64,000 bases of DNA from Candidatus Woesebacteria bacterium (GCA_020060565.1 JAGVAE010000002.1:19974-83973); one strand, 5' to 3'. Positions 23,462-55,976 are shown, counted from the first letter of the stretch. Notes: generated from the letters alone by a model not told the origin. A program made the numbers and translations.

Positions 23462-25959
23462 TCAGAGTGGCCGCAGGCGTGGCATTTGGAGCAGCCTTCC
23501 TCAAAAACCATGGCGGGAGATCCACAGCTGGGACAGATATCTCCTATTTTGTTATCTTGCGGGATATTTAATGCCATCTGCTGCACCTCTGGCTCAAGCG
23601 GTGTATCGTGATTAATATTATTAAATCCAAAGTGCATTCCAATAGCTTTTGCAATAGCATCAGGTAGGGACCTAACTTTATTTATTCCAAATCCTACAGA
23701 TCTACTACCTCCAATTCCTTGAAGTTGTTCCATAATTTCCCTGGCTCTTTCTCTTGCTGGCAGATGATTTCCAAATCTGAAATTAGTTGAGACTAAACGC
23801 CCCAACGCTTCCGCCATGGCTGCAACTTCACTTCCTGCTTTTCCTATGGTTACAAATAATTCAAAGGGTTCTCCCGTTTCTGTCTCATTAATGGTAATGA
23901 ATGAACTTCCCAGTGGAGTTAATATTCTATAAGTTGACCCACTGACTTTAACGGGGCGCTCCATTATTACTGATTTTTGTGTGTCTTCTTGTTTACTTTC
24001 TTTTTCGGTTTTATTGTTTGTTCCAATATTTAAGACTTGTTCGTTTTTACTTCCATCTCTAAAAATTGTTATTCCCTTACAGTTTGACTCCCAAGCAGAA
24101 AGATATGCATTTTTTACGTCATCTACCGTTGAATCATGACTAAGATTTATGGTTTTACTGACTGCATTTTCTGTGTATTTTTGAAAGGCAGACTGAATTT
24201 TGATATGCCATTCAGGTGCAATTTCATGAGCAGTACCAAAAACGGCACGTACATCAGCAGGAATCTCTTCCATTCCCCGTATTACTCCACGTTCTCCCAC
24301 TTTTGTCATTAAAGATTCATTCCAAAAGCCCTTTTCTTTGGCAATTTTTTCAAATCTAGGTTCTACAAAGGTTAATTTTCTATCTAGGTGTTTATCTTTA
24401 ACAATGTGTTGATATGCAACCGCAAACATGGGCTCCACCCCACTAGAAGCTCCTGCAATAATTGAAATTGATCCAGTTGGTGCAATTGTTGTGACTGTCG
24501 AGTTCCTTCTTGGAGGACCTTCTCTATAAATACTTACAGGGAAAAGTGGAAAAGGACCACGTTCTTTTGCCAGTTTTCTATCTTCATCTAATGCTTCATC
24601 TGAAATAAACTTCATTACTTTTTCGGCCAAAACTATTGCTTCTTCACTATCAAATGGAATTCCCAGCTCAATCAACATGTCACTCCATCCCCCCACTCCA
24701 AGACCAATACGGCGTGCATTAAATACCGTTTTTCTTAACTGCTCCAGGGGAAGTGGATTAACTTCGATGACATCATCCAAAAATCTTGTCGCGGTTCTGG
24801 CAACTTGGGCTAGTTCATCCCAATTGATTTTCCCGTCTTTCACAAAATAACCAAGGAAAATACTTCCCAAATTACAGGCATCGAATGGATATAGAGGTTG
24901 TTCACCACACGGATTAGTTGACTCAACTGGACCCAATACTGGGATTGGGTTTCCGCTTCCAGCATTAATTCTATCAATAAAAATTAAGCCTGGGTCCCCT
25001 GACCTCCAAGCTGCATTAGCAATCTCGTCAAAGACCTTTCTGGCATTTAGAGCTCCTACAACTTTCTTTGTTCTGGGATCAATAAGACTATAATCTTCAT
25101 CTTTTTTATACGCTTCCATAAAAGGATCTGTGATTGCCACTGATATATTGAAGTTAGTTATTCCCCCTTCTTCTTTACAATGAATAAACTCCATAACATC
25201 AGGATGGTCTACTCGGAGTATTCCCATGTTGGCCCCTCTTCTTTTTCCTCCCTGTTTAACTTCATTTGTTGCTGCATCAAATATTCTCATAAACGATATT
25301 GGGCCACTTGCGGTCCCACTTGATGTTTTAACTATCGAACCGTTAGGGCGAAGTCTACTAAAAGAAAATCCAGTTCCCCCACCAGTTTTATGAATTATTG
25401 CCTGGTATTTAAGTGCATCAAAAATCCCTTCCATAGAATCTTCAACAGGGAGAACAAAACAGGCTGAATATTGAAGACCATTACCTGTTCCTGCATTCAT
25501 TAGAGTTGGTGAGTTTGGTAAAAACTTTCTTGAGATCATAAGGTTATAGAAGTTGTGGGCCATTTTTTCTACTCCTTTTTTGGTTGCCCCCCAAACCGCC
25601 TCAGCAGATGCTATCTCCCAAGAAATTCTCCAAACCATTTGTTCTGCAGTTTCAATTGGTTTGAGTTCATCATTCTTCATCAAGTAGCGCTCATTTAAAA
25701 CTTTAAGAGCTTGCTCGGTCCACTCCCCTTTGGGTAAACCTTTTGGCATGGCTGGCATACTACCTATCTTTTTTCTAATTTTTCCTGTCACTTCTTCATA
25801 AGATGGAGCAGAGAGGTCGTTTATTGTTATTTTTGTTTCCCCATTTTTGTATACAAACTTATTCCCTCCGGGCCGTAGGCCCTTTGGGCCGGAGGCTTTT
25901 CTTTTATCTTTTGTTTGTAATTGCATATTTTTTAAGTTACTTCTCAATAAGTTTTTCAA
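23455..25959 (-). CDS. nrdJ: ribonucleoside-triphosphate/diphosphate reductase, adenosylcobalamin-dependent (class II, NrdJ)
   Basis: Active-site motifs YSACFVLPVEDS and TNPCGEQPLYPFDACNLGSI. C-terminal zinc ribbon CPSCGSP...CSKCHACGHSEC. NrdJ-like N-terminus EQALKVLNERYLMKNDE begins near M67/M70. The first 66 codons overlap nrdR and the GC-rich element and may not be translated. Confidence 0.9.
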   Translation of the reverse strand: MKNLLRSNLKNMQLQTKDKRKASGPKGLRPGGNKFVYKNGETKITINDLSAPSYEEVTGKIRKKIGSMPAMPKGLPKGEWTEQALKVLNERYLMKNDELKPIETAEQMVWRISWEIASAEAVWGATKKGVEKMAHNFYNLMISRKFLPNSPTLMNAGTGNGLQYSACFVLPVEDSMEGIFDALKYQAIIHKTGGGTGFSFSRLRPNGSIVKTSSGTASGPISFMRIFDAATNEVKQGGKRRGANMGILRVDHPDVMEFIHCKEEGGITNFNISVAITDPFMEAYKKDEDYSLIDPRTKKVVGALNARKVFDEIANAAWRSGDPGLIFIDRINAGSGNPIPVLGPVESTNPCGEQPLYPFDACNLGSIFLGYFVKDGKINWDELAQVARTATRFLDDVIEVNPLPLEQLRKTVFNARRIGLGVGGWSDMLIELGIPFDSEEAIVLAEKVMKFISDEALDEDRKLAKERGPFPLFPVSIYREGPPRRNSTVTTIAPTGSISIIAGASSGVEPMFAVAYQHIVKDKHLDRKLTFVEPRFEKIAKEKGFWNESLMTKVGERGVIRGMEEIPADVRAVFGTAHEIAPEWHIKIQSAFQKYTENAVSKTINLSHDSTVDDVKNAYLSAWESNCKGITIFRDGSKNEQVLNIGTNNKTEKESKQEDTQKSVIMERPVKVSGSTYRILTPLGSSFITINETETGEPFELFVTIGKAGSEVAAMAEALGRLVSTNFRFGNHLPARERAREIMEQLQGIGGSRSVGFGINKVRSLPDAIAKAIGMHFGFNNINHDTPLEPEVQQMALNIPQDNKIGDICPSCGSPAMVFEEGCSKCHACGHSEC
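25864..25896. repeat. GC-rich alternative-hairpin element, copy A (CCCTCCGGGCC-gta-GGCCC-ttt-GGGCC-GGAGG)
   Basis: About 62% GC element in a 33% GC genome. Lies between the nrdR stop and the probable nrdJ start. A second copy is at 45809..45843 with identical stems and different loops. Confidence 0.6.
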
Positions 25960-26377
25960 AATCTGTTAAGTCTTCAAATTCTAAATAGACACTTGCAAAT
26001 CTGAGCCAGGCTACTTTATCTATTTTCTTTAATCTTTTCAAGACCGCATTTCCTATGGTTCTTGAGGATATCTCTTGCTCCTCCCCTCTTAACATCTCAC
26101 GCTCAACACTTTCTATAATCTCATCTACTGTTTCCATTGATACTGGTCTTTTTTGAATTGACCTTAGAATCCCATGTCTTATTTTTTCCTTATCCCAAGA
26201 TTCTCGTCTACCATCTTTTTTAATTACCCAAAGAACACTATCTTTTACTTTTTCGAATGTAGTAAATCTTTTACCACATTTCGAGCATTCCCTACGTCTT
26301 CTAATTGATCCTCCATCTTCTATAGTTCTACTCTCAAGTACCTGTGAATCGATCTTTCCGCAAAATGGACATTTCAT
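25937..26377 (-). CDS. nrdR: transcriptional repressor NrdR
   Basis: N-terminal zinc ribbon MKCPFCG...CSKCGKRF followed by ATP-cone. 146 aa. Overlaps the annotated nrdJ ORF start by 23 nt. Confidence 0.9.
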   Translation of the reverse strand: MKCPFCGKIDSQVLESRTIEDGGSIRRRRECSKCGKRFTTFEKVKDSVLWVIKKDGRRESWDKEKIRHGILRSIQKRPVSMETVDEIIESVEREMLRGEEQEISSRTIGNAVLKRLKKIDKVAWLRFASVYLEFEDLTDFEKLIEK

Positions 26378-26392
26378 GTATGAAAAGTAAAC

Positions 26393-26408
26393 ACACTACA
26401 GTTAGTGA
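26393..26408. promoter_or_regulatory. candidate NrdR box (ACACTACAGTTAGTGA)
   Basis: 12/16 match to the acaCwAtATaTwGtgt NrdR-box palindrome. Located 16-31 nt upstream of the nrdR start. No convincing second box. Confidence 0.25.
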
Positions 26409-26591
26409 CTACTTAGCTAATTTACCACTAGGTCTGTGGGGGTCAACTATCAACTAATAGTTACAAATGTATCACGCCAGGCGTCGAGTAAGCCTAGAAA
26501 AATATTAATTCCTGAAGTTTTTGCGGAAAAAATATTGATGATTTTAAAAAAATTTTTTTATGAGTATAAAAAATGAAGACAAAATAAACTG

Positions 26592-27227
26592 TTATTGCCC
26601 ATTAAACGGGTTTTTTGGAGTTTCTATTCCTTTCGAATTTAGAGTATCACGACAAGTTTTATAGATTTCTTTAGCATAATCTTCCGCTTTCACTACTTCT
26701 GGCCTTATATCTTCTGGAGAGAGCGGCATTATCTTTTCTTCAATTACTTGTCTATGCTTTAAAGATGCGTTGGCAAGTTTAATTAGAAAATCATTAGTAT
26801 TTATCCCTGCCTCTCTAGCTCGCTCTTCATCTTTTGCTGCAACCTCTAGATACTTCTCCCCTTTTACTAATGTTGTCACTGCAATATCTGGTTTCCCGTT
26901 TTCAAAAAGAATTAAACTTGAACCTAAACGTTTGTCTGCATAAAGAAGCGCAAAATCTGCTTTCTTGAGAGGGTCGGAAGTAATTGAATACTGAGCCCTA
27001 TCTCTTAAAGCTTTAAAGTACCAAAGAAAATTATCAGGGTGTACTCCTCCTGGATATGGTAAAAAGTAATTGATCTCGGGAAGTGGTATCTCAGTTGATT
27101 TGGAAATTGGGGGTGGTGTTGAGTATCCGTAGGCTGGAGAAACTGAGGAAGACCTTAAAACTGATACCGAAAGAATTACGAAAGCAAGGACAAAAGCCGC
27201 AACTCCGTACAAATATTTCCTTATCAT
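26592..27227 (-). CDS. hypothetical signal-anchored protein
   Basis: N-terminal TM/signal segment. No recognised domain. Confidence 0.45.
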   Translation of the reverse strand: MIRKYLYGVAAFVLAFVILSVSVLRSSSVSPAYGYSTPPPISKSTEIPLPEINYFLPYPGGVHPDNFLWYFKALRDRAQYSITSDPLKKADFALLYADKRLGSSLILFENGKPDIAVTTLVKGEKYLEVAAKDEERAREAGINTNDFLIKLANASLKHRQVIEEKIMPLSPEDIRPEVVKAEDYAKEIYKTCRDTLNSKGIETPKNPFNGQ

Positions 27228-27280
27228 TGGGTAACTAACATAGTACCCCGGAGTCTAGTATGTGTCAAGTTAATGATAAG

Positions 27281-27937
27281 TTATCTAAATAAAATAATTG
27301 GCCACTCCCAAAGGACATGGAGAAAAATTGAACCAAAGATATTCTTTGTTCTTGAGAAAATAAAAGCTGAACCAAGTCCGAAAATGGCTGTTATGGCAAG
27401 ATAGACGGCTGCTTGGGGGACTGTATAATTCCAAATGAAAAAGGCTATTGGGACATGAACTATCGTCCAAGCTATGGTTTGGATCAGGTTTGCTATCAAC
27501 TCTCCTCTAAATACCTTTGTTAGCCTACCATATATATATCCCCTGAAAGCTGTTTCCTCTGAAAAAGCTGTTGCAAAAGAAAGACCTAAGGAAGTCATTA
27601 GAGGAAGACTTCCTATATTGGCCGCAAAATTTAGCTGTCCATATTTCAGATAATTGGATAAAAGCCCTTCAATTACAAATACTGATCCCAAACCAAGTGA
27701 AAGATAGATTGAGGGAAAAAGATTTTTTAAAGTTATTCCAAGAGAAGTTATTGTTTCTTTTTCTTTGCGTACAAAATAAACCAAAGGAATAAGCCAGACT
27801 ATTGGTTTAATTATAAATTCTTCAATATCATCTGGAAATTTAAAAAGAAATCGGTAAAAGGCCCAAATAACTATTAGGTAAGCTACATAAATAGTAACGT
27901 TTTTAATTATTGAGGTTTTTGTAACTTTGGCAGTCAT
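27281..27937 (-). CDS. CPBP (CAAX) family intramembrane metalloprotease
   Basis: EETAFRGYIYGRL (EExxxR), FxxxH and C-terminal HVLWEW (HxxxN/D-like) motifs in a polytopic membrane protein. Confidence 0.7.
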   Translation of the reverse strand: MTAKVTKTSIIKNVTIYVAYLIVIWAFYRFLFKFPDDIEEFIIKPIVWLIPLVYFVRKEKETITSLGITLKNLFPSIYLSLGLGSVFVIEGLLSNYLKYGQLNFAANIGSLPLMTSLGLSFATAFSEETAFRGYIYGRLTKVFRGELIANLIQTIAWTIVHVPIAFFIWNYTVPQAAVYLAITAIFGLGSAFIFSRTKNIFGSIFLHVLWEWPIILFR

Positions 27938-27956
27938 ACTCTTAACTATTATTATA

Positions 27957-28457
27957 TTACAATTTACATGTCTTAAATGATTGATCTATTGCTGTGGTAA
28001 TCATATTTACTCTTTCTATTGCTTCATCTAGAGTTACTGCATTTTTCTCATTTGGGAACCAATGGAATACTAAATTTCTACTTATTCTCCATGTTTCCCA
28101 AAGATTGTCAGCTAAATCCTTTCCTCCACAATGTTTTACGACCTTGTCATATACGCTATCTTTTCTAATCTCTTTTGGAAGTGATGGATTAAGAGATTTT
28201 CCAATTCTGAAACGTTTTCCGTAGTAGTCCTCATTTGTGATAAATTCTAGATCTAAAAACATTTTTTTAAGAAAACCTTCATATGCTTTGGCTGCTGGAA
28301 ACACAACAAAAGAATAATCATTAAATTCATCCTCTCCTCCAGGAAGATCTACTCCCCAGCTTTTAACAGTAGAAACTAAAAATCTTGATGTAATCAAAAG
28401 TTTTTGAAGATCGGTTTCCAAATAATTCCACCAAACTTTTTGTTCTAAAGCTTCCAT
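27957..28457 (-). CDS. hypothetical protein
   Basis: 166-aa soluble ORF with no family assigned. Confidence 0.45.
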   Translation of the reverse strand: MEALEQKVWWNYLETDLQKLLITSRFLVSTVKSWGVDLPGGEDEFNDYSFVVFPAAKAYEGFLKKMFLDLEFITNEDYYGKRFRIGKSLNPSLPKEIRKDSVYDKVVKHCGGKDLADNLWETWRISRNLVFHWFPNEKNAVTLDEAIERVNMITTAIDQSFKTCKL

Positions 28458-28474
28458 ACGATATAATTTAACCT

Positions 28475-30715
28475 ATGGGGAGTTTTTTTGCAAAGGTGGG
28501 TCGTTTTTTGAAAAATCAAGTAAGTACGGCGAGAAATATTAAAAGATTAATATTTTTTACTGTTGTTATATCTATAACTGTTTATTTGTTCTGGGGGATC
28601 CCATTACCTGTTAATATTGCCAATAGCCAACCTGTTTCAACTAGGATATTGGATAGAAATGGAAAACTAATATATGAAATTTATTCAGAAAAAAGAAGAT
28701 CTCCCATTAGCCTTACCGATCTTCCCAAACATGTTACCCAAGCAACCATCGCGATTGAAGACAAAGACTTTTATAAACATAAAGGTTTTTCCCTAACAGG
28801 TATCACAAGAGCATTATATAAAAATATAGTTAAACAAAATATTCAAGGAGGCTCAACCATAAGTCAACAATTAGTCAAAAACGCCCTTTTAAGTAATGAG
28901 AAAACAATAAGAAGAAAGGCGCAGGAATTGATTCTAACTATTATAGTTGAAGGCGTTTATACTAAAGATCAGATTCTAGAGACTTATTTAAACACAATCC
29001 CTTATGGTGGAACCACTTACGGAATTGAGGAGGCAAGCGAAACTTATTTTGGAAAATCTGCCAAAGACTTAGATTTGGCACAAGCGGCTCTTCTTGCGGG
29101 GCTTCCTCAAAGACCTTCTACTTATTCCCCATTTGGAGCGCATCCAGAACTAGCAAAAAGTAGACAGGAAGAAGTTCTAAAACAAATGGTCGTCAGTAAA
29201 TTTATTACACAAGAAGAAGCTGATAAAGCAAAAAGTGAAACGTTGATTTATAGAAAAATCTCCCCTACCCAAGCTCCTCATTTTGCTCTTTGGATTAAGG
29301 AACAATTAGCTGATAAATATGGGGAAAAGAAAGTCGAACAGGGAGGGCTTAGGGTTTATACCACGCTTGACTTAGATATCCAAAATTATGCACAAGATGT
29401 TCTAGCCACAGAGGTTGCAAAACTCAAAAAACAAAATGTTGGCAATGGTGCTTTGATTGTTACAAGACCAGCAACTGGAGAGATTCTGGCCATGGTAGGG
29501 TCTAAGGACTACTTTGCCACCGACGAGGATGGAAAAGTAAATGTTATTCTGGCAAAACGTCAACCAGGAAGCTCTATAAAACCTCTTAATTATGCCTTAG
29601 CTCTTCGAGATCAAAAAATTACACTTGCCACAGCACTTGCTGATATTTCTACTTGTTTCCAGGTTTTAGGACAACCTAGCTATTGTCCAGTCAATTACGA
29701 TGGTATCTTTCATGGGCTAGTACAGATTAGATTTGCCTTGGGAAATTCATACAATATTCCAGCTGTTAAAGTACTTGCCCTTAATGGTGTTGACAACTTT
29801 GTGCGTTTTGCAAATCAAATGGGAATATCTACATTTACAGATCCAAAAAATTACGGTCTTTCTCTTACACTTGGAGGTGGAGAAGTTAAACCAATTGATA
29901 TGGCTGAAGCATTTGGAGTATTTGCTAATAGTGGAATTAGACAACCTCTAATTGCTGTTACAAAAGTAACCGATTGGAAAGGTCAAACATTGGAAGAGGT
30001 AAATTTGGAAAAGCTTAAATTAACAGGATCAAGAATTATTGATCCTTCAGTAGCGTTTTTAGTATCACACACCTTACTTGACAATAATGCCAGATCAAAC
30101 GCATTTGGCACAAGCTCATATTTAAACGTTTCAGGACATCCTGAAGTCTCTGTTAAAACAGGTACAACAAACGACAGGCGTGATAATTGGACAATTGGCT
30201 ATACTGCAAATGCAGTTGTTGTTGTCTGGGTAGGAAATAACGACAATTCGGAAATGGGTGGGGCTGTGTCTGGTATTTCAGGAGCCTCTCCTGTTTGGAA
30301 TAAGGTAATGAAGGCAACGCTGGACAAAGCCGAAAAAGGAGCATATGACGCTTCAGAAAAGGGTCATGCGTGGCCACGTCAACCCGGGGGCGTTGTTGGA
30401 GCCACTATCTGTTCTGATACTGGAGGTCTTCCAGGAAGTGATCCTTCAAATCCGGGTTGCCCTACAAGATTTGAATATTTCTTAGAAGGGACTGTTCCTT
30501 CAACTTCCTACGTTGTTGGTCAGGATGTTCAGATAAATAATGTCACAAGTCAGTTGGCGGGACCCAAAGATCCTGTTGAGATAATTCACACTGAAAACAA
30601 ACCCATTTATACAGACCCTACAGGTGCTTTATATTGTATGACTTGTCCGATTTCTTCCGAGTCAGCGAATATCAGATATCCACTTCTGCAAATATGGAAT
30701 TCTCCTTTTAATTAG
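28475..30715 (+). CDS. penicillin-binding protein 1A family (bifunctional glycosyltransferase/transpeptidase)
   Basis: N-terminal TM. GT51 motifs EDKDFYKHKGF and QGGSTISQQLVKN. Transpeptidase SxxK (GSSIKP), SxN, KTG (KTGTTND). Confidence 0.9.
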   Translation: MGSFFAKVGRFLKNQVSTARNIKRLIFFTVVISITVYLFWGIPLPVNIANSQPVSTRILDRNGKLIYEIYSEKRRSPISLTDLPKHVTQATIAIEDKDFYKHKGFSLTGITRALYKNIVKQNIQGGSTISQQLVKNALLSNEKTIRRKAQELILTIIVEGVYTKDQILETYLNTIPYGGTTYGIEEASETYFGKSAKDLDLAQAALLAGLPQRPSTYSPFGAHPELAKSRQEEVLKQMVVSKFITQEEADKAKSETLIYRKISPTQAPHFALWIKEQLADKYGEKKVEQGGLRVYTTLDLDIQNYAQDVLATEVAKLKKQNVGNGALIVTRPATGEILAMVGSKDYFATDEDGKVNVILAKRQPGSSIKPLNYALALRDQKITLATALADISTCFQVLGQPSYCPVNYDGIFHGLVQIRFALGNSYNIPAVKVLALNGVDNFVRFANQMGISTFTDPKNYGLSLTLGGGEVKPIDMAEAFGVFANSGIRQPLIAVTKVTDWKGQTLEEVNLEKLKLTGSRIIDPSVAFLVSHTLLDNNARSNAFGTSSYLNVSGHPEVSVKTGTTNDRRDNWTIGYTANAVVVVWVGNNDNSEMGGAVSGISGASPVWNKVMKATLDKAEKGAYDASEKGHAWPRQPGGVVGATICSDTGGLPGSDPSNPGCPTRFEYFLEGTVPSTSYVVGQDVQINNVTSQLAGPKDPVEIIHTENKPIYTDPTGALYCMTCPISSESANIRYPLLQIWNSPFN

Positions 30716-30721
30716 CCTCAG

Positions 30722-33737: not shown

Positions 33738-33751
33738 GGTCCAAAACTTAG

Positions 33752-37813: not shown

Positions 37814-37857
37814 GCTCCGCTTATAGACAGTGTTATATTAGTGTACAATATCCGAGT

Positions 37858-38211: not shown

Positions 38212-38216
38212 ATCTT

Positions 38217-38403
38217 CTATAAAGTTTTGAATTCTTTTTCAACAGCATCTGCTATGTATTGTTTCATTAAAGTTTGATAAGGCATATCTTTTTTATTTGC
38301 TACAACCTTAACTTTAGCTAACAAACCAGTAGTGATTCTTAAAGAAATTGGTTGCCTTGTTAATTTTAAATTTGGGTATTGGTTTAAGTTTTTTATTTTT
38401 CAT
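38217..38403 (-). pseudogene. brnA-like antitoxin remnant (internal deletion + frameshift)
   Basis: Frame A MKNKKLKPIPKFKIN... stops after 29 codons. Frame B continues PNLKLTRQPISLRITTGLLAKVKVVANKKDMPYQTLMKQYIADAVEKEFKTL. Both halves align to the intact BrnA at 58504..58788 (MKKLEKVKKLKKIPKFKSE... / ...[42 protein letters not shown]). The roughly 25 middle codons are missing. Confidence 0.5.
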
Positions 38404-38410
38404 ATTTTTG

Positions 38411-39373
38411 TCAAGCGTTTTTACGAGCAAGAACTTTTTTAACAGCCTCGACTATGTTTTTTGATTTCAAACCAAACTTTTCCCACAATTCCATTGGATC
38501 AAGAGATGATTCACCAAAGCAGTCATGTACTCCTATAAATTCAATTGGAACGGGATGTGTTTGGCAGACAACTTCAGAAACTGCACTCCCCAACCCCCCC
38601 ATTATTTGATGTTCTTCAACTGTTACAATTGCCTCGCAAATTCTAGCTGCATTAGTAATTGCAATGTCATCAATTGGTTTAATTGTATGATTATTAATAA
38701 CTATTGTTTCTATCCCCATCTCTTTTAAGTCTTTTGCGGCAGAGAGAGCTTCGGAAAGGATTGGGCCGCAACCGATTATCGCAACCTGGGGGTCACGTCC
38801 TTCATATAGTGTATTTGCTTTTCCTATCTCAAACTCTTGTCCCTCGAAGCCTTGGCGAAGTGGGGTCGTCAATTCAGGAGACTCCTGACGTGCCAATCTT
38901 AAATATGAAGGCTTTCCGTTACCTGCGATAGATATTGTGGCTTTTTTGGCTTCTTCATAGTCACAGGGAGAAACTACAACCATATTGGGGATTACCCGCA
39001 TGAGTGCAATGTCTTCCAATGATTGGTGTGTCGCTCCATACATTGAAGCACCAAAACCTGCATGGGCTCCTATTATTTTTACTGGGACATCATTAAGAGC
39101 CGCCGTAATTTTAATTTGTTCCCAGGTACGCCCTGGAGAAAAAACCGCATAACTGGTTGTAAATGGAATCTTTCCAGCTAAAGCCATTCCTGCGGCAACA
39201 GTAACAAGCGCTTGTTCCGCAACTCCCACCTGAAAAAATCTATCAGGAAAGGCTTCTGCAAATTCTTTTACTCTGGTTGACTCGGCAAGGTCGGCAGTCA
39301 AAACTACAACATCAGGGTTTTTATGCCCTATCTCAACCAGCGCCTCTCCAAAACCATCACGTATCGATTTCAT
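38411..39373 (-). CDS. tkt: transketolase, C-terminal subunit (split transketolase)
   Basis: Pyrimidine-binding and C-terminal domains (FFQVGVAEQALVTVAAGMA, FEIGKA). 320 aa. Contains the 27-nt repeat in frame (TTPLRQGFEG). Confidence 0.9.
   Translation of the reverse strand: MKSIRDGFGEALVEIGHKNPDVVVLTADLAESTRVKEFAEAFPDRFFQVGVAEQALVTVAAGMALAGKIPFTTSYAVFSPGRTWEQIKITAALNDVPVKIIGAHAGFGASMYGATHQSLEDIALMRVIPNMVVVSPCDYEEAKKATISIAGNGKPSYLRLARQESPELTTPLRQGFEGQEFEIGKANTLYEGRDPQVAIIGCGPILSEALSAAKDLKEMGIETIVINNHTIKPIDDIAITNAARICEAIVTVEEHQIMGGLGSAVSEVVCQTHPVPIEFIGVHDCFGESSLDPMELWEKFGLKSKNIVEAVKKVLARKNA
38841..38867. repeat. 27-nt exact repeat copy 2 (ccctcgaagccttggcgaagtggggtc) inside tkt C-subunit coding sequence
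   Basis: Identical to 6568..6594. The encoded segment RQESPELTTPLRQGFEGQE is about 6 aa longer than the usual loop before FEIGKA in transketolases. Confidence 0.7.
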
Positions 39374-40774: not shown

Positions 40775-41892
40775 GATAAAGATAGGGGGTCAGTTGGAAC
40801 GGAATTTCCTTCTAAATTTCTTCCAACCCTAATTACTTGTTCTACTAGTCTACTGGCATATCCCCACTCATTGTCATACCAGGCAAAAATTTTAACCATA
40901 TTTCCCGCAACTACTTGCGTTAACCCAAGATCTACTATTGAAGACTCGCTTCTGCCAATAATATCACTTGAAACTAAATCTTCCTCAGTAACTGCTAATA
41001 TTCCCTTATATAAGGCATTTTGCGTAGCATCTTTTAGGGCCTGATTTACCTCTTCTTTAGTGACATTCTTTTTAAGTAAAAATGTAAAGTCGGTTATAGA
41101 ACCCGTGGCAACGGGAACACGAAGAGCCATACCATCAAAGATTCCTTTAAGCTCTGGTATGGTTTCTGTTGTTGCGATGGCAGCGCCTGTTGAGGTTGGA
41201 ACAATATTCATCCCTGCCGCCCGCGCGCGCCTTAAATCCTTATGACTTCCATCTTGTAGGTTTTGGTCATCTGTATATGCATGGATTGTTGTCATCATTG
41301 CCTTTTCAATTCCGAACTTGGAATGAATTACTGCAGCAACAGGGGCAACACAATTAGTCGTACAAGAAGCGTTAGAGATTACAATTCCTTGAGGAATTTG
41401 ATTTTCAACCTCGTTTACTCCCAGTACATATGTTCCAACATTGTCTCCTTTGGCTGGAGCTGAGATTACTACACGTTTGGCTCCCCCAATTGCATGTTTC
41501 TTTGCTCCTTCTTCGTCTGTAAAATGCCCCGTAGCCTCAATAACAACATCCACTCCATACTTTCCCCATGGAATTTTTGCAGGATCTTTTTGGGCAAGAA
41601 TTGGAACTTTAACATTCTTCTCTGAAACCATTAATTCCCCTATCAGAGGATCCTCATCTGTTGCGTCTTTTGGATCTTTTATTTCATTAGCCTTCACCAA
41701 ATACTCAAACTTTCTATACATCGTATCGTGATTGGTAAGAGCTGCCCAACCTGCCGTATTCATACTCCCTGAAGTGTTTATTGCAACAAACTGTATTTCA
41801 TCAGAATGTTTGAGGATACCAATCCTAAAAGCTATTCTTCCAATTCTCCCAAATCCATTTATTCCTACTTTAACCATGTTGTATTCCTGCAC
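40759..41892 (-). CDS. gap: glyceraldehyde-3-phosphate dehydrogenase, type I
   Basis: VKVGINGFGRIGR and active-site SNASCTTNCVAP. Start probably MVKVGING (M6). Confidence 0.9.
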   Translation of the reverse strand: MQEYNMVKVGINGFGRIGRIAFRIGILKHSDEIQFVAINTSGSMNTAGWAALTNHDTMYRKFEYLVKANEIKDPKDATDEDPLIGELMVSEKNVKVPILAQKDPAKIPWGKYGVDVVIEATGHFTDEEGAKKHAIGGAKRVVISAPAKGDNVGTYVLGVNEVENQIPQGIVISNASCTTNCVAPVAAVIHSKFGIEKAMMTTIHAYTDDQNLQDGSHKDLRRARAAGMNIVPTSTGAAIATTETIPELKGIFDGMALRVPVATGSITDFTFLLKKNVTKEEVNQALKDATQNALYKGILAVTEEDLVSSDIIGRSESSIVDLGLTQVVAGNMVKIFAWYDNEWGYASRLVEQVIRVGRNLEGNSVPTDPLSLSWKNK

Positions 41893-41953
41893 AACATGGG
41901 AAAATCTCCCACCATTTGAGCATTAAAATCATTATACAAGTATAATAGTAGCC

Positions 41954-42640
41954 ATGAAAGTATCTGTCGTGGTTCCTGCGTACAATGAGGAGCTTTTTAT
42001 AGGTAGATGCTTGGGAAGTTTGGTGGGGCAAAGTGTTAAACCTGATGAAATAATTGTGGTAGACAATAACTCGACAGATAAAACTGCAGAAATTGCAAAA
42101 AGATTCCGTGTAAGAATTGTTAAAGAAAAAGTCCAAGGCATGACACATGCTAGAAACCGCGGATTTAATGAGGCTAAGTATGAGATTATCGCCAGGTGTG
42201 ACGCAGACGTTGTAGTTCCTGCTGATTGGATTGAAAGAATTAAAAAGAACTTTAATAGAAAGAAAATAGACGCCCTATCAGGCCCTGTTGCCTATACAGA
42301 TTCTCCGTTCATTACCCACTCTCCTCTTCCCTCCAAAGTCTATCTTGAGTCTCTAAGACTTCTTTCTAAGGGCAATAGATATTTGGTTGGGCCAAATATG
42401 TCACTAACTAAAGAGATCTGGAAAAAGGTAAAAGATATAGTTAACACCGATGACTCAAAGGTACATGAAGATATTGACCTGTCTTTAAAAATTGCAAAGA
42501 TTGGAGGAAAAATTGGATATGATCCAAAATTGATTGTAAGTAGCAGCGCCCGAAGAATTGTAGGCAAGCCCCAGTCTTTTTTTATTGAATATTCTGCAAG
42601 AGCAATCAATACATTCTTAATAAATGGCAAGAATGATTAA
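41954..42640 (+). CDS. glycosyltransferase family 2
   Basis: VSVVVPAYNEELFIGRCL...IVVDNNSTD...DAD. Its TATAAT ends 9 nt before the ATG, so the mRNA is probably leaderless or has a short leader. Confidence 0.8.
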   Translation: MKVSVVVPAYNEELFIGRCLGSLVGQSVKPDEIIVVDNNSTDKTAEIAKRFRVRIVKEKVQGMTHARNRGFNEAKYEIIARCDADVVVPADWIERIKKNFNRKKIDALSGPVAYTDSPFITHSPLPSKVYLESLRLLSKGNRYLVGPNMSLTKEIWKKVKDIVNTDDSKVHEDIDLSLKIAKIGGKIGYDPKLIVSSSARRIVGKPQSFFIEYSARAINTFLINGKND

Positions 42641-43608
42641 TTAGTTTGTTTTTGAAGTGCTTCTATTCCTGGAAGGGTTTTTTTGGAGAGAAATTCAAGC
42701 ATTGCTCCTCCCCCTACCGAAACCCAATCAAATTTATCTATTAAATTCAATTTAGCTATAACCACCAAGCTATCTCCTCCACCAGTAATTCTAAAGGCAG
42801 TCGAATTAGAAACGGCTTTAAAGATTCTCTCAGTCCCTTGCATATGACCTGGGTTTTCATACTTACCCATTGGCCCTGCAAGAACAATTGTTCCTGCACT
42901 TTTAACCTCTTTTTCAAAAACCTCAATTGAATTTAAGGTTATGTCTTCTTTATCTTGAACCAAGTTCCCAATCAAAAGTTTTTCATCTTTTTTCTGAAGC
43001 CTAATACTTTCAAGCGCACTATCACCATAATATTCAGGAAGCTTGCCTCCAATTAGTATCAAATCTGCCATGCTTTTAAGAAATTCTATATATTTTGGCT
43101 TATCTTTTTTAGATCCCCCAATTACAAATAATAGGGGTCTTTTCGGATTTTCAAAAACTTTACTTAAGTTTTCTATTTCACTAACAAATCTAAATCCAAA
43201 AGCACTGGGAAGAAGTTTTGGGAGGCCAACAATACTGGCATGGTCACGATGAGAGGAAGCAAAAGCTTCATTTACATAAACATCCCCCATGGAAGCTAGT
43301 TTTTTTGCAAATTCAAGATCGTTGCTTTCTTCTCCAGGATCAAAACGGAGATTTTCATAAACCCTTACCCCCCATTTATCAAAAATTGACTGAAAGGGTT
43401 TCAAACTCAAACTTTCATCCACTTTTCCACCAGGTCGACCACGATGAGATAAAATCATTGTTTGTGCTCCTTTTTCTTTTAGAAAGTTTAGTGTCTCCTC
43501 AGAGGCTTTTATTCTTAATTCATTTGGATCAGGATCACAATCAAGATCAAGACGAAGAAGGACTCTTTTACCTGAAACATCTAAATCAGTTAGTTTGGGC
43601 AGATCCAT
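42637..43608 (-). CDS. pgk: phosphoglycerate kinase (short form)
   Basis: GKRVLLRLDLD..., ILSHRGRP, and C-terminal GGGDS / SVGGGAMLEFL motifs. Only 323 aa. Confidence 0.75.
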   Translation of the reverse strand: MDLPKLTDLDVSGKRVLLRLDLDCDPDPNELRIKASEETLNFLKEKGAQTMILSHRGRPGGKVDESLSLKPFQSIFDKWGVRVYENLRFDPGEESNDLEFAKKLASMGDVYVNEAFASSHRDHASIVGLPKLLPSAFGFRFVSEIENLSKVFENPKRPLLFVIGGSKKDKPKYIEFLKSMADLILIGGKLPEYYGDSALESIRLQKKDEKLLIGNLVQDKEDITLNSIEVFEKEVKSAGTIVLAGPMGKYENPGHMQGTERIFKAVSNSTAFRITGGGDSLVVIAKLNLIDKFDWVSVGGGAMLEFLSKKTLPGIEALQKQTN

Positions 43609-43620
43609 AATTTTGGGGTT

Positions 43621-44070
43621 TTAGTTATTCGCTTCGATTTTTTCTATCTCTTCAAGCCTTCTCTCATACTTAGCTTTGCCTGAAAATTTTGTTTCAAGGA
43701 AGGCAATTAGCATTGCTTTGGCTTCTTTTTCAATTGTATAGTCAGCTGCAATTACTAGCACATTCATATCATCATCATTTCTTCCCGCCTCAATCTGAAA
43801 AACATCTTTCCCGATTGCCGCTCTTATGCCGTCAAATTTATTGGCAACAATTTCAACTCCCACTCCACTTCCACAAAGGAGAATCCCACGGCTACCTTCG
43901 TTTTGCGCAACCAAGGAGGCTACTTCTTGAGCATATTTAGTGTAGTCGTCTTTGGGATCGTAAGATTGAGCACCTAAATCTAAGAAAGGCTTCTCCATTT
44001 CAAAAAGCCATTTAGCAATTTTCTCTTTTAATTCATAGCCTCTATGATCTGCTCCTAAATATATCTTCAT
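43621..44070 (-). CDS. rpiB: ribose-5-phosphate isomerase B (RpiB/LacAB family)
   Basis: MKIYLGADHRGYELKEKI...LLCGSGVG typical of RpiB. Confidence 0.85.
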   Translation of the reverse strand: MKIYLGADHRGYELKEKIAKWLFEMEKPFLDLGAQSYDPKDDYTKYAQEVASLVAQNEGSRGILLCGSGVGVEIVANKFDGIRAAIGKDVFQIEAGRNDDDMNVLVIAADYTIEKEAKAMLIAFLETKFSGKAKYERRLEEIEKIEANN

Positions 44071-44076
44071 GGTTCG

Positions 44077-44736
44077 TTATTGAAAACCTGCTACTAAATC
44101 CAATAATTCTTTTTTGGGATCAACTGCTTTAACAATGTCTGTAGCTACTGCAACACCGACTGCTCCAAGTTCCATGCTCTTTTTTACATCCCCCATTGAA
44201 CTTATTCCAGCCCCAACTATTAGAGGAAGACCAAAACTTCTAGCAATTTCTCCTGCTTGGGTTATTATTTCAGGCTTGGCTTGAGCTACTGAGATTGTAG
44301 TTGAACCAACAAGTTCTGCAGGTTCATAAGATACATAAGTTGGAGCTAATCTGCAAATGTTTTTTAATTCTTCTAAATTGTTAGCAAAAATTAGGGTCTT
44401 TAAATTTGCTGCCATTGCTTTCTCGTTTGCTGCATAAAGACTGTCAAAATTATCAAATTTGTGTTCACTGTGGTTTAAGAAGACTCCCAATATTCCTATC
44501 TTTGCCACTTCCTCTGGTAGAGTCCAACCTGTGTGGGCTCCATATGTAATCGGGTCAACGTGTTGGATCCAAACTTCAAGCGTAGTTGAAGCAGTTACCA
44601 TTTCTGCATCAATAATTTGAACTACTGGGATAATTTTTATCTGAGAAGTACGCGCAACTTCTTCTAAGATTTTTGTAAGAGCAACTGCGGCTTGGCCAGA
44701 ACCCTGTTCGTATGTTTTATAATTCACAAATATCAT
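44077..44736 (-). CDS. tpiA: triosephosphate isomerase, archaeal-type short form
   Basis: MIFVNYKTYEQG N-terminus, LNHSEHK (compare NHSERR) and YEPAELVGS (compare YEPVWAIGTG). 219 aa. Confidence 0.65.
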   Translation of the reverse strand: MIFVNYKTYEQGSGQAAVALTKILEEVARTSQIKIIPVVQIIDAEMVTASTTLEVWIQHVDPITYGAHTGWTLPEEVAKIGILGVFLNHSEHKFDNFDSLYAANEKAMAANLKTLIFANNLEELKNICRLAPTYVSYEPAELVGSTTISVAQAKPEIITQAGEIARSFGLPLIVGAGISSMGDVKKSMELGAVGVAVATDIVKAVDPKKELLDLVAGFQ

Positions 44737-44771
44737 AAATTAAAAGCAATATCAGAAACTTGTAATACCTG

Positions 44772-45029
44772 TTATACCCGATTTACTTGTAATACTTTAT
44801 CTATTTTTCCCTTGTCAAATCCCAAGATAGTTTCGCGAGTTCCATCGTCTTTGGTAATTATTATAAAGGGAACCCCAAAAAATCCCCCCGAAGCTTCTCC
44901 CATTTCTTTTTGGGCAGCATCATCTATATCTACTAGTTTTTCAGTGAATGAAACATTCTTTGAAGTGAGATAATCCTTCAGTGCTTTGCAAAAAGGACAA
45001 ACCGATGTGGAATAAATGATTACTGTCAT
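44772..45029 (-). CDS. glutaredoxin-like protein (NrdH/YruB-type)
   Basis: IIYSTSVCPFCKALKDYL CPFC redox motif. 85 aa. Confidence 0.75.
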   Translation of the reverse strand: MTVIIYSTSVCPFCKALKDYLTSKNVSFTEKLVDIDDAAQKEMGEASGGFFGVPFIIITKDDGTRETILGFDKGKIDKVLQVNRV

Positions 45030-45053
45030 TTGTACTAACTCATTGTAGATGAA

Positions 45054-45509
45054 TTAGAATGAGCCTTCAAGGACGCGGGTTGTCCCAAGCACAACTATTA
45101 CTTTATTGTAGCCTGGGAATTTTGAGGAGGTGTATTCCAAAAGATAACCAGCCTTTGATATTCTCATGCTTCCAATATTAACTGTTTCACCTTTCGAGTT
45201 TTCAAGCAATACCTGATACTTTTGTCCATTTGTAGGTTCTGGTAAATTAGCTACGACTTCCGTTCTTGTTGCAATTCCAATTGAACTTCCACCAGTTACG
45301 TCATGTAAATTAGCCTTCTCTACTCCATCAGGAATATTGAAATTAGAAAAAGTTTTTCTTATCTGTTCAGAAATATTTGGAGTTGGAAGGGGTTGACTTA
45401 TATTTTTAGTGTTTCTTACTTTAACAATCCACAAAATACCTGCAATCAAGATTACTAAAAATATAAATCCTATGACAATATCTCGTGTTTTCATAATATA
45501 CTTATACAC
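45054..45509 (-). CDS. hypothetical membrane-anchored protein
   Basis: N-terminal TM helix. TTGACA-17-TATTTT promoter-like sequence upstream on the minus strand. Confidence 0.45.
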   Translation of the reverse strand: MYKYIMKTRDIVIGFIFLVILIAGILWIVKVRNTKNISQPLPTPNISEQIRKTFSNFNIPDGVEKANLHDVTGGSSIGIATRTEVVANLPEPTNGQKYQVLLENSKGETVNIGSMRISKAGYLLEYTSSKFPGYNKVIVVLGTTRVLEGSF

Positions 45510-45618
45510 TTATAAACAGATATTACAAGCTCCGCTTATTCGTGGCTAAAAATAGCACCACTTTCGAATCTTGTCAAGTTTTTTTTACCGCAGATTTAAC
45601 GCGTAAAAAACGCAAGGC

Positions 45619-45798
45619 TCAACTTAGCTTCAAATAAATAGCGAATGCCACAAGGACAAGGGAAACCAAAAGCCATTGGGTTGCTGCCAACCAAATATCT
45701 GGGCCTATCCAACCTTCTGCAGCCATTAAAACTGCCAGCCCTGATCCATACATTAAATATTTGGAAATATTGGATTTGGTATTTTTACTAAATTTCAT
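45619..45798 (-). CDS. small membrane protein (hypothetical), start taken at MKFSKNT
   Basis: 59 aa with two TM segments. Preceded by GGAGGGGGG-8nt-ATG. The longer ORF to 45864 would translate the GC-rich element. Confidence 0.4.
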   Translation of the reverse strand: MKFSKNTKSNISKYLMYGSGLAVLMAAEGWIGPDIWLAATQWLLVSLVLVAFAIYLKLS

Positions 45799-45808
45799 AT
45801 TGCTCACC

Positions 45809-45843
45809 CCCCTCCGGGCCAGAGGCCCCATGGGCCGGCGGCC
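45809..45843. repeat. GC-rich alternative-hairpin element, copy B (CCCTCCGGGCC-aga-GGCCC-cat-GGGCC-GGCGG)
   Basis: Same stem segments as copy A with different loops. The 3' GGAGG(GGGG) arm in gene sense doubles as the SD for MKFSKNT. Confidence 0.6.
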
Positions 45844-55953: not shown

Positions 55954-55976
55954 TTATAAAAGAACGCCTGATTATA

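What the first reader, a model, noticed from the sequence alone, without database searches (positions are those of the whole stretch)
25864..45843. GC-rich roughly 35-nt element with two mutually exclusive hairpins, in two copies 5' of nrdJ and of a small membrane-protein gene
Copy A (25864-25896) reads CCCTCCGGGCC-gta-GGCCC-ttt-GGGCC-GGAGG. Copy B (45809-45843) reads CCCTCCGGGCC-aga-GGCCC-cat-GGGCC-GGCGG. Each is about 62% GC in a 33% GC genome. The five stem segments are conserved while both loops differ. Each copy would be translated in a different frame by the annotated ORF, so conservation is at the nucleotide/structure level and not the peptide level. In gene sense the central GGGCC can pair with either flanking GGCCC, making a two-state switch. 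In copy B the outer GGAGG is the SD 8 nt before the likely start MKFSKNT. Both copies sit immediately 5' of a minus-strand gene in the same orientation. The element could be a translational-control RNA switch, a protein-binding DNA site, or a miniature GC-rich mobile repeat.
Basis: seen in the sequence. Interest (0 to 1): 0.65.

Follow-up and report, generated by a model that had tools for sequence, protein, structure and literature searches.

The report
Tiny GC-rich mobile palindromic repeat
The two GC-rich 33-base sequences are copies of a very small hairpin-forming repeat that occurs almost unchanged in many unrelated uncultured bacteria; one copy is inserted in frame inside the nrdJ gene, and neither looks like a switch controlling these two genes.

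Summary
The element is real: two 33-nt copies (25864-25896 and 45810-45842), 28/33 identical, 79-85% GC in a 36.8% GC window, with none expected by chance. The setting was misread. Copy A lies inside nrdJ (codons 11-21, ASGPKGLRPGG). Copy B lies upstream of a small gene that already has its own ribosome-binding site. Close relatives have empty sites at both positions, and one relative carries a decaying nrdJ copy. The same module (CCCT-CCGGGCC-NNN-GGCCC-NNN-GGGCCGG-NGGC) recurs nearly unchanged in MAGs labelled Patescibacteria, Desulfobacterota, Verrucomicrobiota, Omnitrophota, Gammaproteobacteria and others, and in viral contigs. It sits between genes, at the centre of longer palindromes, nested inside other copies, and in frame within Lon, PolA, PheT and SecDF. 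A single long hairpin is also supported. No Rfam family or exact literature match was found. Best reading: a REP/MITE-like mobile repeat, here as two passive insertions. The mobilising enzyme is unknown; the one adjacent RayT transposase tested proved not to be linked.

The parts
25864..25896 (+). Module copy A (subtype 1, loops GTA/TTT, 3' flank AGGC): CCCT-CC-GGGCC-GTA-GGCCC-TTT-GGGCC-GG-AGGC. Arms are at 25870-25874, 25878-25882 and 25886-25890. On the minus strand it is read as nrdJ codons 11-21 (ASGPKGLRPGG).
   Evidence: Insertion relative to the orthologue L121, with a decayed copy in L120.
45810..45842 (+). Module copy B (subtype 2, loops AGA/CAT, 3' flank CGGC): CCCT-CC-GGGCC-AGA-GGCCC-CAT-GGGCC-GG-CGGC. 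Arms are at 45816-45820, 45824-45828 and 45832-45836. It is intergenic, 11 nt upstream of the small gene's ATG (GGAGG-to-ATG spacing 12 nt) and 22 nt from the TTGACG -35-like hexamer of the divergent riboswitch gene.
   Evidence: Absent at the orthologous site of L271, where there is a gap of about 35 nt.
23455..25926 (-). nrdJ (class II, B12-dependent ribonucleotide reductase, 823 aa), host gene of copy A. The insertion lies in a Lys-rich N-terminal linker of variable length, between MQLQT and KFVYKNG.
25937..26377 (-). nrdR, immediately upstream of nrdJ. Its stop is 10 nt before the nrdJ ATG, which leaves no leader that could hold the module.
45619..45798 (-). Small membrane-protein gene (59 aa, MKFSKNT...), the neighbour downstream of copy B. 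Its own SD-like GGGGGTGAG lies between the module and the ATG.

Best explanation
Both sequences are copies of a 33-bp, GC-rich, nearly palindromic, non-coding dispersed repeat: a very small REP/MITE-like mobile element. Its unit is CCCT-CCGGGCC-NNN-GGCCC-NNN-GGGCCGG-NGGC, that is, three 5-nt arms in alternating orientation separated by 3-nt loops and enclosed by a 5-bp outer stem. SHOWN: (1) both window copies are lineage-specific insertions; (2) the same unit occurs nearly unchanged in many unrelated uncultured bacteria and in viral contigs; (3) it lands between genes, at the centre of pre-existing palindromes, inside the second loop of other copies, and in frame (33 nt = 11 codons) in loops of essential proteins; (4) old copies decay by point mutation. 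INFERRED: copies are made by a trans-acting enzyme that recognises the folded single strand, either as two alternative 5-bp hairpins sharing the middle arm or as one long hairpin. The nearest model is the IS200/IS605-RAYT 'peel-and-paste' Y1 transposases, and I put that specific step at only about 0.3. In this window the element is most likely a passive passenger. It adds 11 residues (ASGPKGLRPGG) to a tolerant N-terminal linker of NrdJ, and it sits just upstream of the native ribosome-binding site of a small membrane-protein gene. Any effect on expression is a side effect, not its purpose.
For: Empty or filled orthologous sites: the nrdJ site is filled in the window, filled but mutated at 4 positions in L120, and empty in L121 and in all the other listed NrdJ homologues. 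The copy B site is empty in L271, whose neighbouring gene product is 85% identical. Spread: 78 module instances among genome and viral loci with moderate GC, always with the same flanks and a small set of loops, in MAGs labelled Patescibacteria (L040, L075, L098, L102), Desulfobacterota (many), Verrucomicrobiota (L014, L007), Omnitrophota (L096), Brocadiaceae (L015), Gemmatimonadaceae (L005) and Gammaproteobacteria (L049, L100), and often near contig ends. In-frame coding insertions fall in gaps relative to solved Lon, PheT-beta, Klenow PolA (an exact 11-residue gap) and SecDF. All 4 gene-sense insertions use the ASGPxGxRPGG frame and lack the TAT/TAC loop that would give a TAG stop. That loop is present in 69% of copies, so P is about 0.009. 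Nesting: a 33-nt subfamily sits exactly inside loop 2 (TA^G) of an outer 33-nt module, with deeper nesting in L309 and L018. Structure: arm1:arm2 pairs in 90% of cells and arm2:arm3 in 97%, with double-sided changes at three stem positions. The G/G centre asymmetry is kept in every module-like hit. No Rfam family matched, and no paper in the searched library contains the sequence in this context.
Against: No mobilising enzyme was identified. A Y1-transposase profile hit only 2 ORFs in 1.16 Mb of module-bearing DNA and none in the window. The one RayT gene adjacent to modules (L014) belongs to a clade whose 8 other loci (5 distinct sites) lack the module and carry different REPs. No target-site duplication or common target sequence was seen. 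The window holds only two copies in 64 kb, so high copy number is not shown for this genome. The coordinated arm changes come from only about three independent subfamilies, and three equivalent protein half-sites would explain them equally well. Taxon labels of MAG contigs come from their records and were not re-derived. Near-identity of a 33-mer across phyla is unusual for REP-type repeats, which are normally lineage-specific. So either horizontal spread or an unknown shared constraint is needed.
Confidence: 0.78

Rival explanations
1. A cis-acting translational-control RNA switch in the mRNA leaders of nrdJ and the small membrane-protein gene. Two mutually exclusive hairpins would expose or hide the ribosome-binding site.
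For: The middle arm can pair with either neighbour, and the two states have equal energy (-15.0 kcal/mol each). Arm covariation supports those pairings. Both window copies have the same orientation relative to a minus-strand gene start. Across the family, copies near gene starts tend towards that orientation (17 against 8, not significant).
Against: Copy A is inside the CDS and 10 codons past the start, and nrdR ends 10 nt before the nrdJ ATG, so there is no leader. Orthologues with 85% identical proteins lack both copies, and L120's nrdJ copy is decaying. The native SD of the small gene exists without the module. The same module lies within Lon, PolA, PheT and SecDF CDS and in both orientations, with no strand bias (20 against 28, p = 0.31). 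The U.G and G.U intermediates pair only on the strand antisense to the window's genes. No Rfam match.
Confidence: 0.04
2. A DNA operator for a host regulator, for example one linked to nucleotide or B12 metabolism, with three GGGCC-type half-sites.
For: Three equivalent 5-bp sites in alternating orientation at 8-bp spacing. All three change together in subfamilies. The window copies lie near nrdR-nrdJ and near an AdoCbl-II riboswitch.
Against: Neighbouring genes across 78 instances have no common function. Many copies lie within CDS or nested inside other copies. Orthologous nrdJ and riboswitch loci lack it. The known NrdR box is AT-rich and different (own knowledge). The half-site pattern fits recognition by a mobilising enzyme just as well.
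Confidence: 0.05
3. An intrinsic terminator or insulator on the + strand (a stable hairpin followed by a T-rich tract) that blocks antisense or read-through transcription. It may have been recruited after insertion.
For: On the + strand both copies are followed by T-rich runs (CTTTTCTTTT, CCTTTCTTATTT). The terminator scan flags sub-hairpins at both. The top-strand long hairpin is very stable for the canonical module (-23.9 kcal/mol). L102 and several Desulfobacterota copies are followed by T runs.
Against: Across the family the 3' flank is not T-enriched (mean 3.2 T in 12 nt 3' against 4.0 T 5'). No + strand gene ends at either window site. Copy A is inside an essential CDS. The T-rich flank of copy A is simply the antisense of the Lys-rich (AAA/AAG) linker.
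Confidence: 0.07
4. A technical artefact (adapter, chimera or assembler product) or contamination shared between metagenome assemblies.
For: All module-bearing records are metagenome-derived. There were no hits in plasmid or phage collections dominated by cultured organisms. Many copies are near contig ends.
Against: Coding copies are in frame and free of stops. L120, an independent JGI sample, has the same nrdJ insertion with 4 point substitutions. Copies come from NCBI, JGI, ENA and Logan assemblies made with different pipelines. Diverged subfamilies and nesting exist.
Confidence: 0.02

Closest known systems
REP elements / REPINs mobilised by RAYT (REP-associated Y1 tyrosine transposases; Bertels & Rainey 2011, PMC3116915)
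   Same: Short, GC-rich, imperfectly palindromic and non-coding. The subtype-1 module contains GTAG directly 5' of a hairpin (GCC-GTAG-GCCC-TAT-GGGC). Two folds have been proposed for REPINs too: a stable long hairpin and a 'clover' of two small hairpins recognised by a transposase dimer. Copies insert into or next to other copies. A verrucomicrobial RayT clade has REPs of the same design, a 5-bp GC stem plus GTA loop.
   Different: Only 33 bp, with three arms sharing a middle arm rather than two inverted REPs with a spacer. Found inside coding sequence. Nearly identical across phyla, whereas REPs are lineage-specific. No cognate RAYT was found: the one adjacent RayT proved unlinked in 8 homologous loci. 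Subtype 2 has AGAG instead of GTAG.
Rickettsia palindromic elements (RPEs; reviewed in PMC10969869)
   Same: Palindromic selfish repeats that insert in frame into unrelated housekeeping genes and are translated as extra peptide segments tolerated in surface loops. Here the hosts are NrdJ, Lon, PolA, PheT and SecDF.
   Different: RPEs are about 100-150 bp, AT-rich like their host, confined to Rickettsia, and encode a conserved longer peptide. This unit is 33 bp, 79-85% GC and spread over many phyla.
Yeast mitochondrial GC clusters (e.g. GC42; PMC4478555)
   Same: 30-45 bp GC-rich hairpin-forming mobile units in AT-rich DNA. Stems are conserved while loops vary. Units merge and shuffle, and the mechanism is unknown. 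From my own knowledge, such clusters also occur inside the var1 coding sequence.
   Different: Mitochondrial, with a putative AG target-site duplication. No sequence similarity. Not known in bacteria.
Cyanobacterial small dispersed repeats (SDRs, 21-27 nt; Elhai et al. 2008, cited in PMC3116915; details from my own knowledge)
   Same: Very small palindromic repeats that appear to move without coding capacity, interrupt genes and other repeats, and nest within one another.
   Different: Restricted to heterocyst-forming cyanobacteria. Different sequences. No three-arm design reported. I could not read that paper here.
IS200/IS605-derived non-autonomous elements (PATEs) and single-strand 'peel-and-paste' transposition
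   Same: Rely on sub-terminal DNA hairpins, leave no target-site duplication and have no terminal inverted repeats in the classical sense. This is compatible with the lack of TSD seen here.
   Different: Those elements insert 3' of a fixed 4-5 nt target and carry two separate end hairpins. No fixed target was seen here, and the two hairpins overlap.

Membership tests
REP / REPIN (RAYT-mobilised) | Short GC-rich imperfect palindrome carrying the conserved GTAG tetranucleotide at the foot of the hairpin | tested here: met
   Subtype 1 (including copy A) reads ...GCC-GTAG-GCCC-TAT-GGGC.... GTA is the commonest loop 1. Subtype 2 (including copy B) has AGAG instead, so the feature is met only for part of the family.
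REP / REPIN (RAYT-mobilised) | Physical linkage of repeats to a cognate single-copy RAYT (Y1_Tnp, PF01797) gene | tested here: not met
   A Y1 profile found 2 ORFs in 1.16 Mb and none in the window. L014's RayT has two modules 65-150 nt upstream. However, 8 loci (5 sites) of 79-89% identical homologues have no module and carry other REPs. A different, untested RAYT clade is not excluded.
REP / REPIN (RAYT-mobilised) | Extragenic location | tested here: not met
   12 of 78 instances lie inside long ORFs. Five coding insertions were verified: window NrdJ by homologue N-termini, and Lon, PheT, PolA and SecDF against solved structures.
REP / REPIN (RAYT-mobilised) | Unit is a doublet of inverted REPs separated by a spacer | tested here: not met
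   The unit is a single 33-mer with three arms. Single 16/17-nt units are rare and multi-unit arrays are due to nesting.
REP / REPIN (RAYT-mobilised) | Many copies per genome | tested here: inconclusive
   2 copies in this 64-kb window. At least 14 copies on fetched contigs of one Desulfobacterota MAG (AB_3033_Bin_63).
MITE (classical, DDE-transposase derived) | Terminal inverted repeats plus target-site duplication | tested here: inconclusive
   The outer arms CCTCCGG/CCGGAGG act as 7-bp inverted ends (outer stem 86% of cells paired). No TSD is evident at the nrdJ or copy B sites, but the flanks are too diverged to resolve 1-2 nt.
Rickettsia palindromic elements | In-frame insertion into unrelated protein-coding genes, translated | tested here: met
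   Avoidance of stop-creating loops, P about 0.009.
Rickettsia palindromic elements | About 100-150 bp unit with sequence homology to RPE families, in Rickettsia | tested here: not met
   The unit is 33 bp, and the hosts are Patescibacteria, Desulfobacterota and others.
Cis-regulatory RNA switch / riboswitch-like leader | Conserved position in the 5' leader of orthologous or functionally related genes | tested here: not met
   Absent from orthologous nrdJ and small-gene loci. Neighbours are unrelated and both orientations occur.
Cis-regulatory RNA switch / riboswitch-like leader | Match to a curated RNA family | tested here: not met
   No Rfam hit at gathering score in the window, or at E<=1 in 7 module-bearing loci.
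Cis-regulatory RNA switch / riboswitch-like leader | Base-pair covariation supporting alternative helices | tested here: met
   Arm1:arm2 and arm2:arm3 show double-sided changes at three positions each. This shows the architecture is constrained. It does not show that it acts as RNA or regulates a gene.
Intrinsic terminator | Stable GC hairpin immediately followed by a U/T tract, at the 3' end of a transcription unit | tested here: not met
   The window copies have T-rich 3' flanks on the + strand, but no + strand gene ends there. Family-wide there is no T enrichment.

The most novel reading that the evidence does not exclude
A previously undescribed, pan-bacterial family of 33-bp three-armed hairpin elements. 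It keeps an almost invariant sequence across phyla as distant as Patescibacteria and Desulfobacterota, and also occurs on viral contigs. It preferentially inserts into hairpin loops, including its own, and can be carried in frame inside essential genes. That would imply either frequent inter-phylum horizontal spread of a 33-mer or a shared, still unidentified structure-specific enzyme. It would be among the smallest mobile DNA units known in bacteria.
Probability: 0.45. Interest if true: 0.8.

Novelty: new variant of a known kind. Interest (0 to 1): 0.62.

Why it matters
It removes a tempting false lead: there is no nrdJ- or B12-linked RNA switch here. It also has practical value for annotation. 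The module adds 11 spurious-looking residues to conserved proteins, and it creates GGAGG and ATG motifs that mislead start-site calling, as with the 81-aa ORF extension over copy B. More broadly, a 33-bp repeat that is nearly identical across distant phyla, nests in its own loops and survives inside essential genes of genome-reduced Patescibacteria raises two questions: how can such a small sequence be copied, and how does it cross phylum boundaries? Its invariant sequence also makes it an easy marker for tracing exchange among uncultured groundwater and sediment bacteria.

Tried and rejected
1. Rfam at gathering score on the window, and at E<=1 on seven module-bearing loci: nothing overlapped the module.
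2. BLAST of the consensus against the plasmid and phage collections: no match.
3. Exact-sequence literature search: only three irrelevant papers. Keyword searches found analogues but not this element.
5. Variant-arm scans of viral contigs: 0, 5, 3 and 1 hits, mostly chance. Only L264 and L268 were module-like.
6. Orientation against coding strand: no significant bias. This removed the idea of a strand-specific transcript function and gave no support for lagging-strand targeting.
7. T-tract enrichment for a terminator role: none family-wide.
8. RAYT linkage: the attractive L014 adjacency did not generalise to homologues.
9. A tandem 16-mer reading of the module (CCTCCGGGCCGTAGGC / CCTATGGGCCGGAGGC): single units are rare, and the one long array (L018) is better explained by nesting.
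10. Folding of the window copies alone: not better than shuffles. The structural support comes only from family comparison.

Full report
**1. The observation**

Both sequences are present. The exact shared unit is 33 nt: 25864-25896 (CCCTCCGGGCCGTAGGCCCTTTGGGCCGGAGGC) and 45810-45842 (CCCTCCGGGCCAGAGGCCCCATGGGCCGGCGGC). The pattern CCGGGCCNNNGGCCCNNNGGGCCGG matches exactly twice on the + strand. The two minus-strand hits are the same sites read as near-palindromes. None of 100 dinucleotide-preserving shuffles gave a match. The copies are 28/33 identical and differ only in the two 3-nt loops and one flank base. Folded alone, the two copies are not significantly more stable than shuffled sequence (z = -0.7 to -1.3). 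So any structural claim has to rest on comparison with other copies.

**2. Where the copies sit**

On the minus strand nrdR (25937-26377) is followed 10 nt later by an ATG (25926) that opens the nrdJ reading frame. A search with this protein returned more than 100 close homologues from Patescibacteria/Microgenomates. Nearly all of them begin MELQT/MALQT, followed by a Lys-rich linker of variable length and then KFVYKNGxT...DLSAPSYEEI. The true start is therefore MQLQT, and copy A is codons 11-21, translated as ASGPKGLRPGG. It is not 5' of nrdJ.

Copy B lies 11 nt upstream of the ATG of a 59-aa membrane-protein gene (45619-45798). It is 22 nt from the -35-like hexamer (TTGACG, 45865) of a divergent gene that is preceded by an AdoCbl-II riboswitch. 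The GGAGG at the module's end is 12 nt from the ATG, and a GGGGGTGAG lies in between.

**3. Both copies are insertions**

The orthologous nrdJ locus L121 (protein 85% identical) reads ...AAAGATAAAGAAAAATAAGTTTATT.... The window reads ...AAAGATAAAAGAAAAG-CCTCC...GGAGGG-AATAAGTTTGTA..., which is the 33-nt unit added within the linker. A second orthologue, L120, has the insertion at the same place but with four substitutions (GCCTCCGGCCCGAAGGGCCTACGGCTAGGTGGG), so it is decaying. Of the 120 listed homologues, only the window protein and P0002 carry the peptide.

For copy B, the orthologous intergenic region of L271 aligns at about 87% identity on both sides. It has a clean gap of about 35 nt exactly at the module, and it keeps the GGGGGTGAG before the same start codon. 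So the module is not the gene's ribosome-binding site. No target-site duplication is evident at either site, but the flanks are too diverged to exclude 1-2 nt.

**4. The same module occurs in many other genomes**

Hits in high-GC genomes look like chance: no common flanks, random loops. In loci below about 63% GC, however, 78 instances carry the whole 33-nt unit with the same flanks (CCCT... and A/C/T-GGC) and a small set of loops. Two subtypes dominate, GTA...TAT...AGGC and AGA...TCT/TAT...CGGC, and the window has one of each.

By record title the hosts are Patescibacteria (Kerfeldbacteria L040, Levybacteria L098, Woesebacteria L102, unclassified L075), many Desulfobacterota, Chthoniobacterales and Opitutales, Omnitrophota, Brocadiaceae, Gemmatimonadaceae and Gammaproteobacteria. 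About 17 viral contigs also carry it. Several hosts are long contigs (303-405 kb for L102 and L098), so mis-binning cannot explain the spread, although I did not re-derive the taxonomy. Copies are often near contig ends, as expected of repeats that break assemblies. When the two central arm positions were left free (S), every module-like hit still had G and G, so the asymmetry that prevents a perfect palindrome is conserved. There is no Rfam family, no hit in the plasmid or phage collections and no paper containing the sequence in this context.

**5. Contexts**

Many Desulfobacterota copies sit exactly at the centre of longer, family-specific palindromes, for example cccctctttg-[module]-caaagagggg. 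Twelve of the 78 lie inside long ORFs. I checked four of these against solved structures:

- **Lon protease** of a Woesebacterium: MKIKK-ASGPKGLRPGG-RVNESHPTILCFIGPPGVGKT.
- **PheT-beta** of a Patescibacterium.
- **DNA polymerase I** of a Kerfeldbacterium.
- **SecDF** of a Levybacterium, in the opposite orientation (PSGPEALRAGG).

In each case the module peptide falls in an alignment gap, and against Klenow fragment the gap is exactly 11 residues. All four gene-sense insertions, including nrdJ, use the same frame. All four lack the TAT/TAC loop, which in that frame would give a TAG stop and which 69% of copies carry (P about 0.009). This argues that the insert is translated, not spliced out. 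Across all instances, orientation shows no significant relation to the local coding strand (20 against 28, p = 0.31), and the 3' flank is not T-enriched.

**6. Nesting and subfamilies**

The single metagenome scan targeted a variant seen in L018, L034 and L268. In most cases it lies exactly inside the second loop (TA^G) of an outer 33-nt module, CTCT-CCGAGGC-GTA-GGCTC-TA|G-GAGCCGG-AGGC, giving a 66-nt composite. L309, L313, L386 and L018 show further levels of nesting. L332 shows the same insertion into a reverse-oriented canonical module. Taken together with the copies at palindrome centres, this suggests a preference for hairpin loops.

**7. Structure**

I aligned 98 distinct 33-nt modules without gaps. 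The outer stem pairs in 86% of cells.

- **Arm 1 with arm 2:** 90% of cells paired.
- **Arm 2 with arm 3:** 97% of cells paired.
- **Compensatory changes in these helices:** double-sided changes at three positions. Columns 8-18 are GC 74 / AU 21. Columns 11-15 are CG 55 / UG 21 / UA 19. Columns 10-16 include AU 2. The mirror pairs are 18-24 (CG 75 / UA 20), 15-27 (GC 68 / AU 17 / GU 9) and 16-26 (UA 2). All exceed the shuffled and slid controls on cells paired and on covariation score.
- **Arm 1 with arm 3 (long hairpin):** no compensatory change. Pairs 8-26, 9-25 and 10-24 are unpaired in 26, 78 and 31 sequences.

Three cautions apply. First, the changes trace to about three subfamilies (GAGCC/GGCTC/GAGCC, GGGCT/AGCCC/GGGCT, GGGAC/GTCCC/GGGAC), so they represent few independent events. 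Second, three equivalent protein half-sites in alternating orientation would produce the same pattern. Third, the two loops also covary with each other (GTA/TAC, TAC/GTA, AGA/TCT, TCC/GGA). The single long hairpin is the minimum-energy fold of the canonical module: -23.9 kcal/mol on the top strand as RNA, against -15.0 for each small-hairpin state. Both folds therefore have support, as in the two-fold model proposed for REPINs. The wobble intermediates (U.G at 11-15, G.U at 15-27) form pairs only on the CCCT...GGC strand, which in the window is antisense to both genes.

**8. Search for a mobilising enzyme**

A profile of four solved IS200/IS605 Y1 transposases was searched against 5,276 ORF segments from the window and the module-bearing loci (1.16 Mb). 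It found two ORFs and none in the window. One of them, L014 5375-5866, is a PF01797 protein that JGI names RayT in homologues. It has two modules 65-150 nt upstream of its start. I then fetched eight loci (five distinct sites) encoding 79-89% identical homologues. None has the module within 2.5 kb. All are flanked by different REPs (GCGCC-GTA-GGCGC-GGCATGT and GCTCC-GTA-GGAGC-GGCATGT), and these are also present in L014. So linkage to this RayT clade is not supported. The shared hairpin design (5-bp GC stem, GTA loop, GTAG) still makes a Y1/RAYT-type enzyme the most plausible class, but that is inference.

**9. Interpretation**

What is shown is a dispersed, insertion-polymorphic 33-bp repeat with conserved architecture, present in many lineages, tolerated in coding sequence and nesting in its own loops. 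What is inferred is that it is copied by a trans-acting, structure-specific enzyme, and that in this window both copies are passive. The translational-switch, operator, terminator and artefact readings are each contradicted by several of these results (see the rival explanations).

Compared with known kinds, it behaves like a REP/REPIN or very small MITE. It behaves like Rickettsia palindromic elements in its in-frame coding insertions, and like yeast mitochondrial GC clusters in being a GC-rich hairpin in AT-rich DNA. It fails the defining REP/REPIN tests of RAYT linkage, extragenic location and doublet structure, and it is far smaller and far more widely spread than RPEs. I therefore class it as a new variant of a known kind. 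The cross-phylum near-identity and the unknown copying mechanism remain unexplained.

Noticed in passing
window 6568-6594 and 38841-38867 (+); weaker relative at 48705-48721: A second, unrelated GC-rich 27-mer (CCCTCGAAGCCTTGGCGAAGTGGGGTC) occurs twice in the same orientation. The copy at 38841 lies inside the C-terminal subunit of a split transketolase (38411-39373, minus strand), read as ...PLRQGFEGQ..., at a 6-residue gap relative to solved homologues. It may be another family of GC-rich mini-insertions in coding sequence. It was not found in any fetched locus.
   Followed up: partly
window 45889-45960 (+) and 45984-46955 (+): An AdoCbl-II riboswitch (39.5 bits, gathering score 36.5) precedes a 323-aa protein with no Pfam domain and a Cys-rich C-terminal zinc-ribbon-like tail. 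Only 37 homologues were found among 5.8 billion proteins, all apparently Patescibacteria. In L272 the homologue follows DUF4430 and DUF6580 genes. This is an uncharacterised B12-regulated gene in a genome that relies on B12-dependent NrdJ.
   Followed up: partly
window 55706-55934 (-), flanks 55655-55693 and 55921-55953: A group I intron (81 bits) is flanked by GC-rich segments that look like tRNA halves. ARAGORN calls no tRNA across 55500-56100. It is probably an intron-interrupted tRNA gene.
   Followed up: partly
window 5740-5761 and 10097-10125: Two other isolated GC-rich palindromes: ACCTGCCTGCCGGCAGGCAGGT (perfect 22-nt palindrome) and GGGTTGGGGGCACCCCCATGCGCCCAACC. Their context was not examined.
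   Followed up: no
window 1-64000: GC skew is negative in 15 of 16 4-kb bins on the + strand, and most long genes seen are on the minus strand. This is a strong strand asymmetry consistent with one replichore. A paper on a Microgenomates genome reports unusual strand composition disparity (PMC7143001, title only).
   Followed up: no
NrdJ homologues P0001-P0120 (N-termini); window 25797-25926 (-): This NrdJ clade has a conserved N-terminal extension (MELQT, a Lys-rich linker, then KFVYKNGxTxITLDDLSAPSYEEI) ahead of the usual class II start. The linker varies from about 5 to about 35 residues and holds other lineage-specific inserts, for example in P0021, P0048 and P0076. Its function is unknown.
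   Followed up: no
L393-L400 (flanks of the RayT gene) and L014 5300-5930: A verrucomicrobial RayT clade is flanked on both sides by REPs of the form GCGCC-GTA-GGCGC-GGCATGT and GCTCC-GTA-GGAGC-GGCATGT. In L397/L398 the whole flank is duplicated together with a second RayT start. These REPs share the 5-bp stem plus GTA loop design of the module's first hairpin.
   Followed up: partly
L134, L138, L140 (one 53.5-kb IMG/VR contig, UViG_3300009127_000006): At least five module copies (subtype AGA/TCT with CCCG...AGGC flanks, plus a GAGGC/GGCTC/GAGCC variant) lie within about 12 kb of one contig classed as viral. This unusually high density could point to a vector or to a misclassified contig.
   Followed up: no
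window 45619-45864 (-): The mechanical ORF list extends the small membrane-protein gene to 81 aa from a GTG upstream of the module. The extension (MLILNKKGRRPMGPLARRGVSN) is the translated module and is absent from the orthologue. So the module can mislead start-codon calling.
   Followed up: yes
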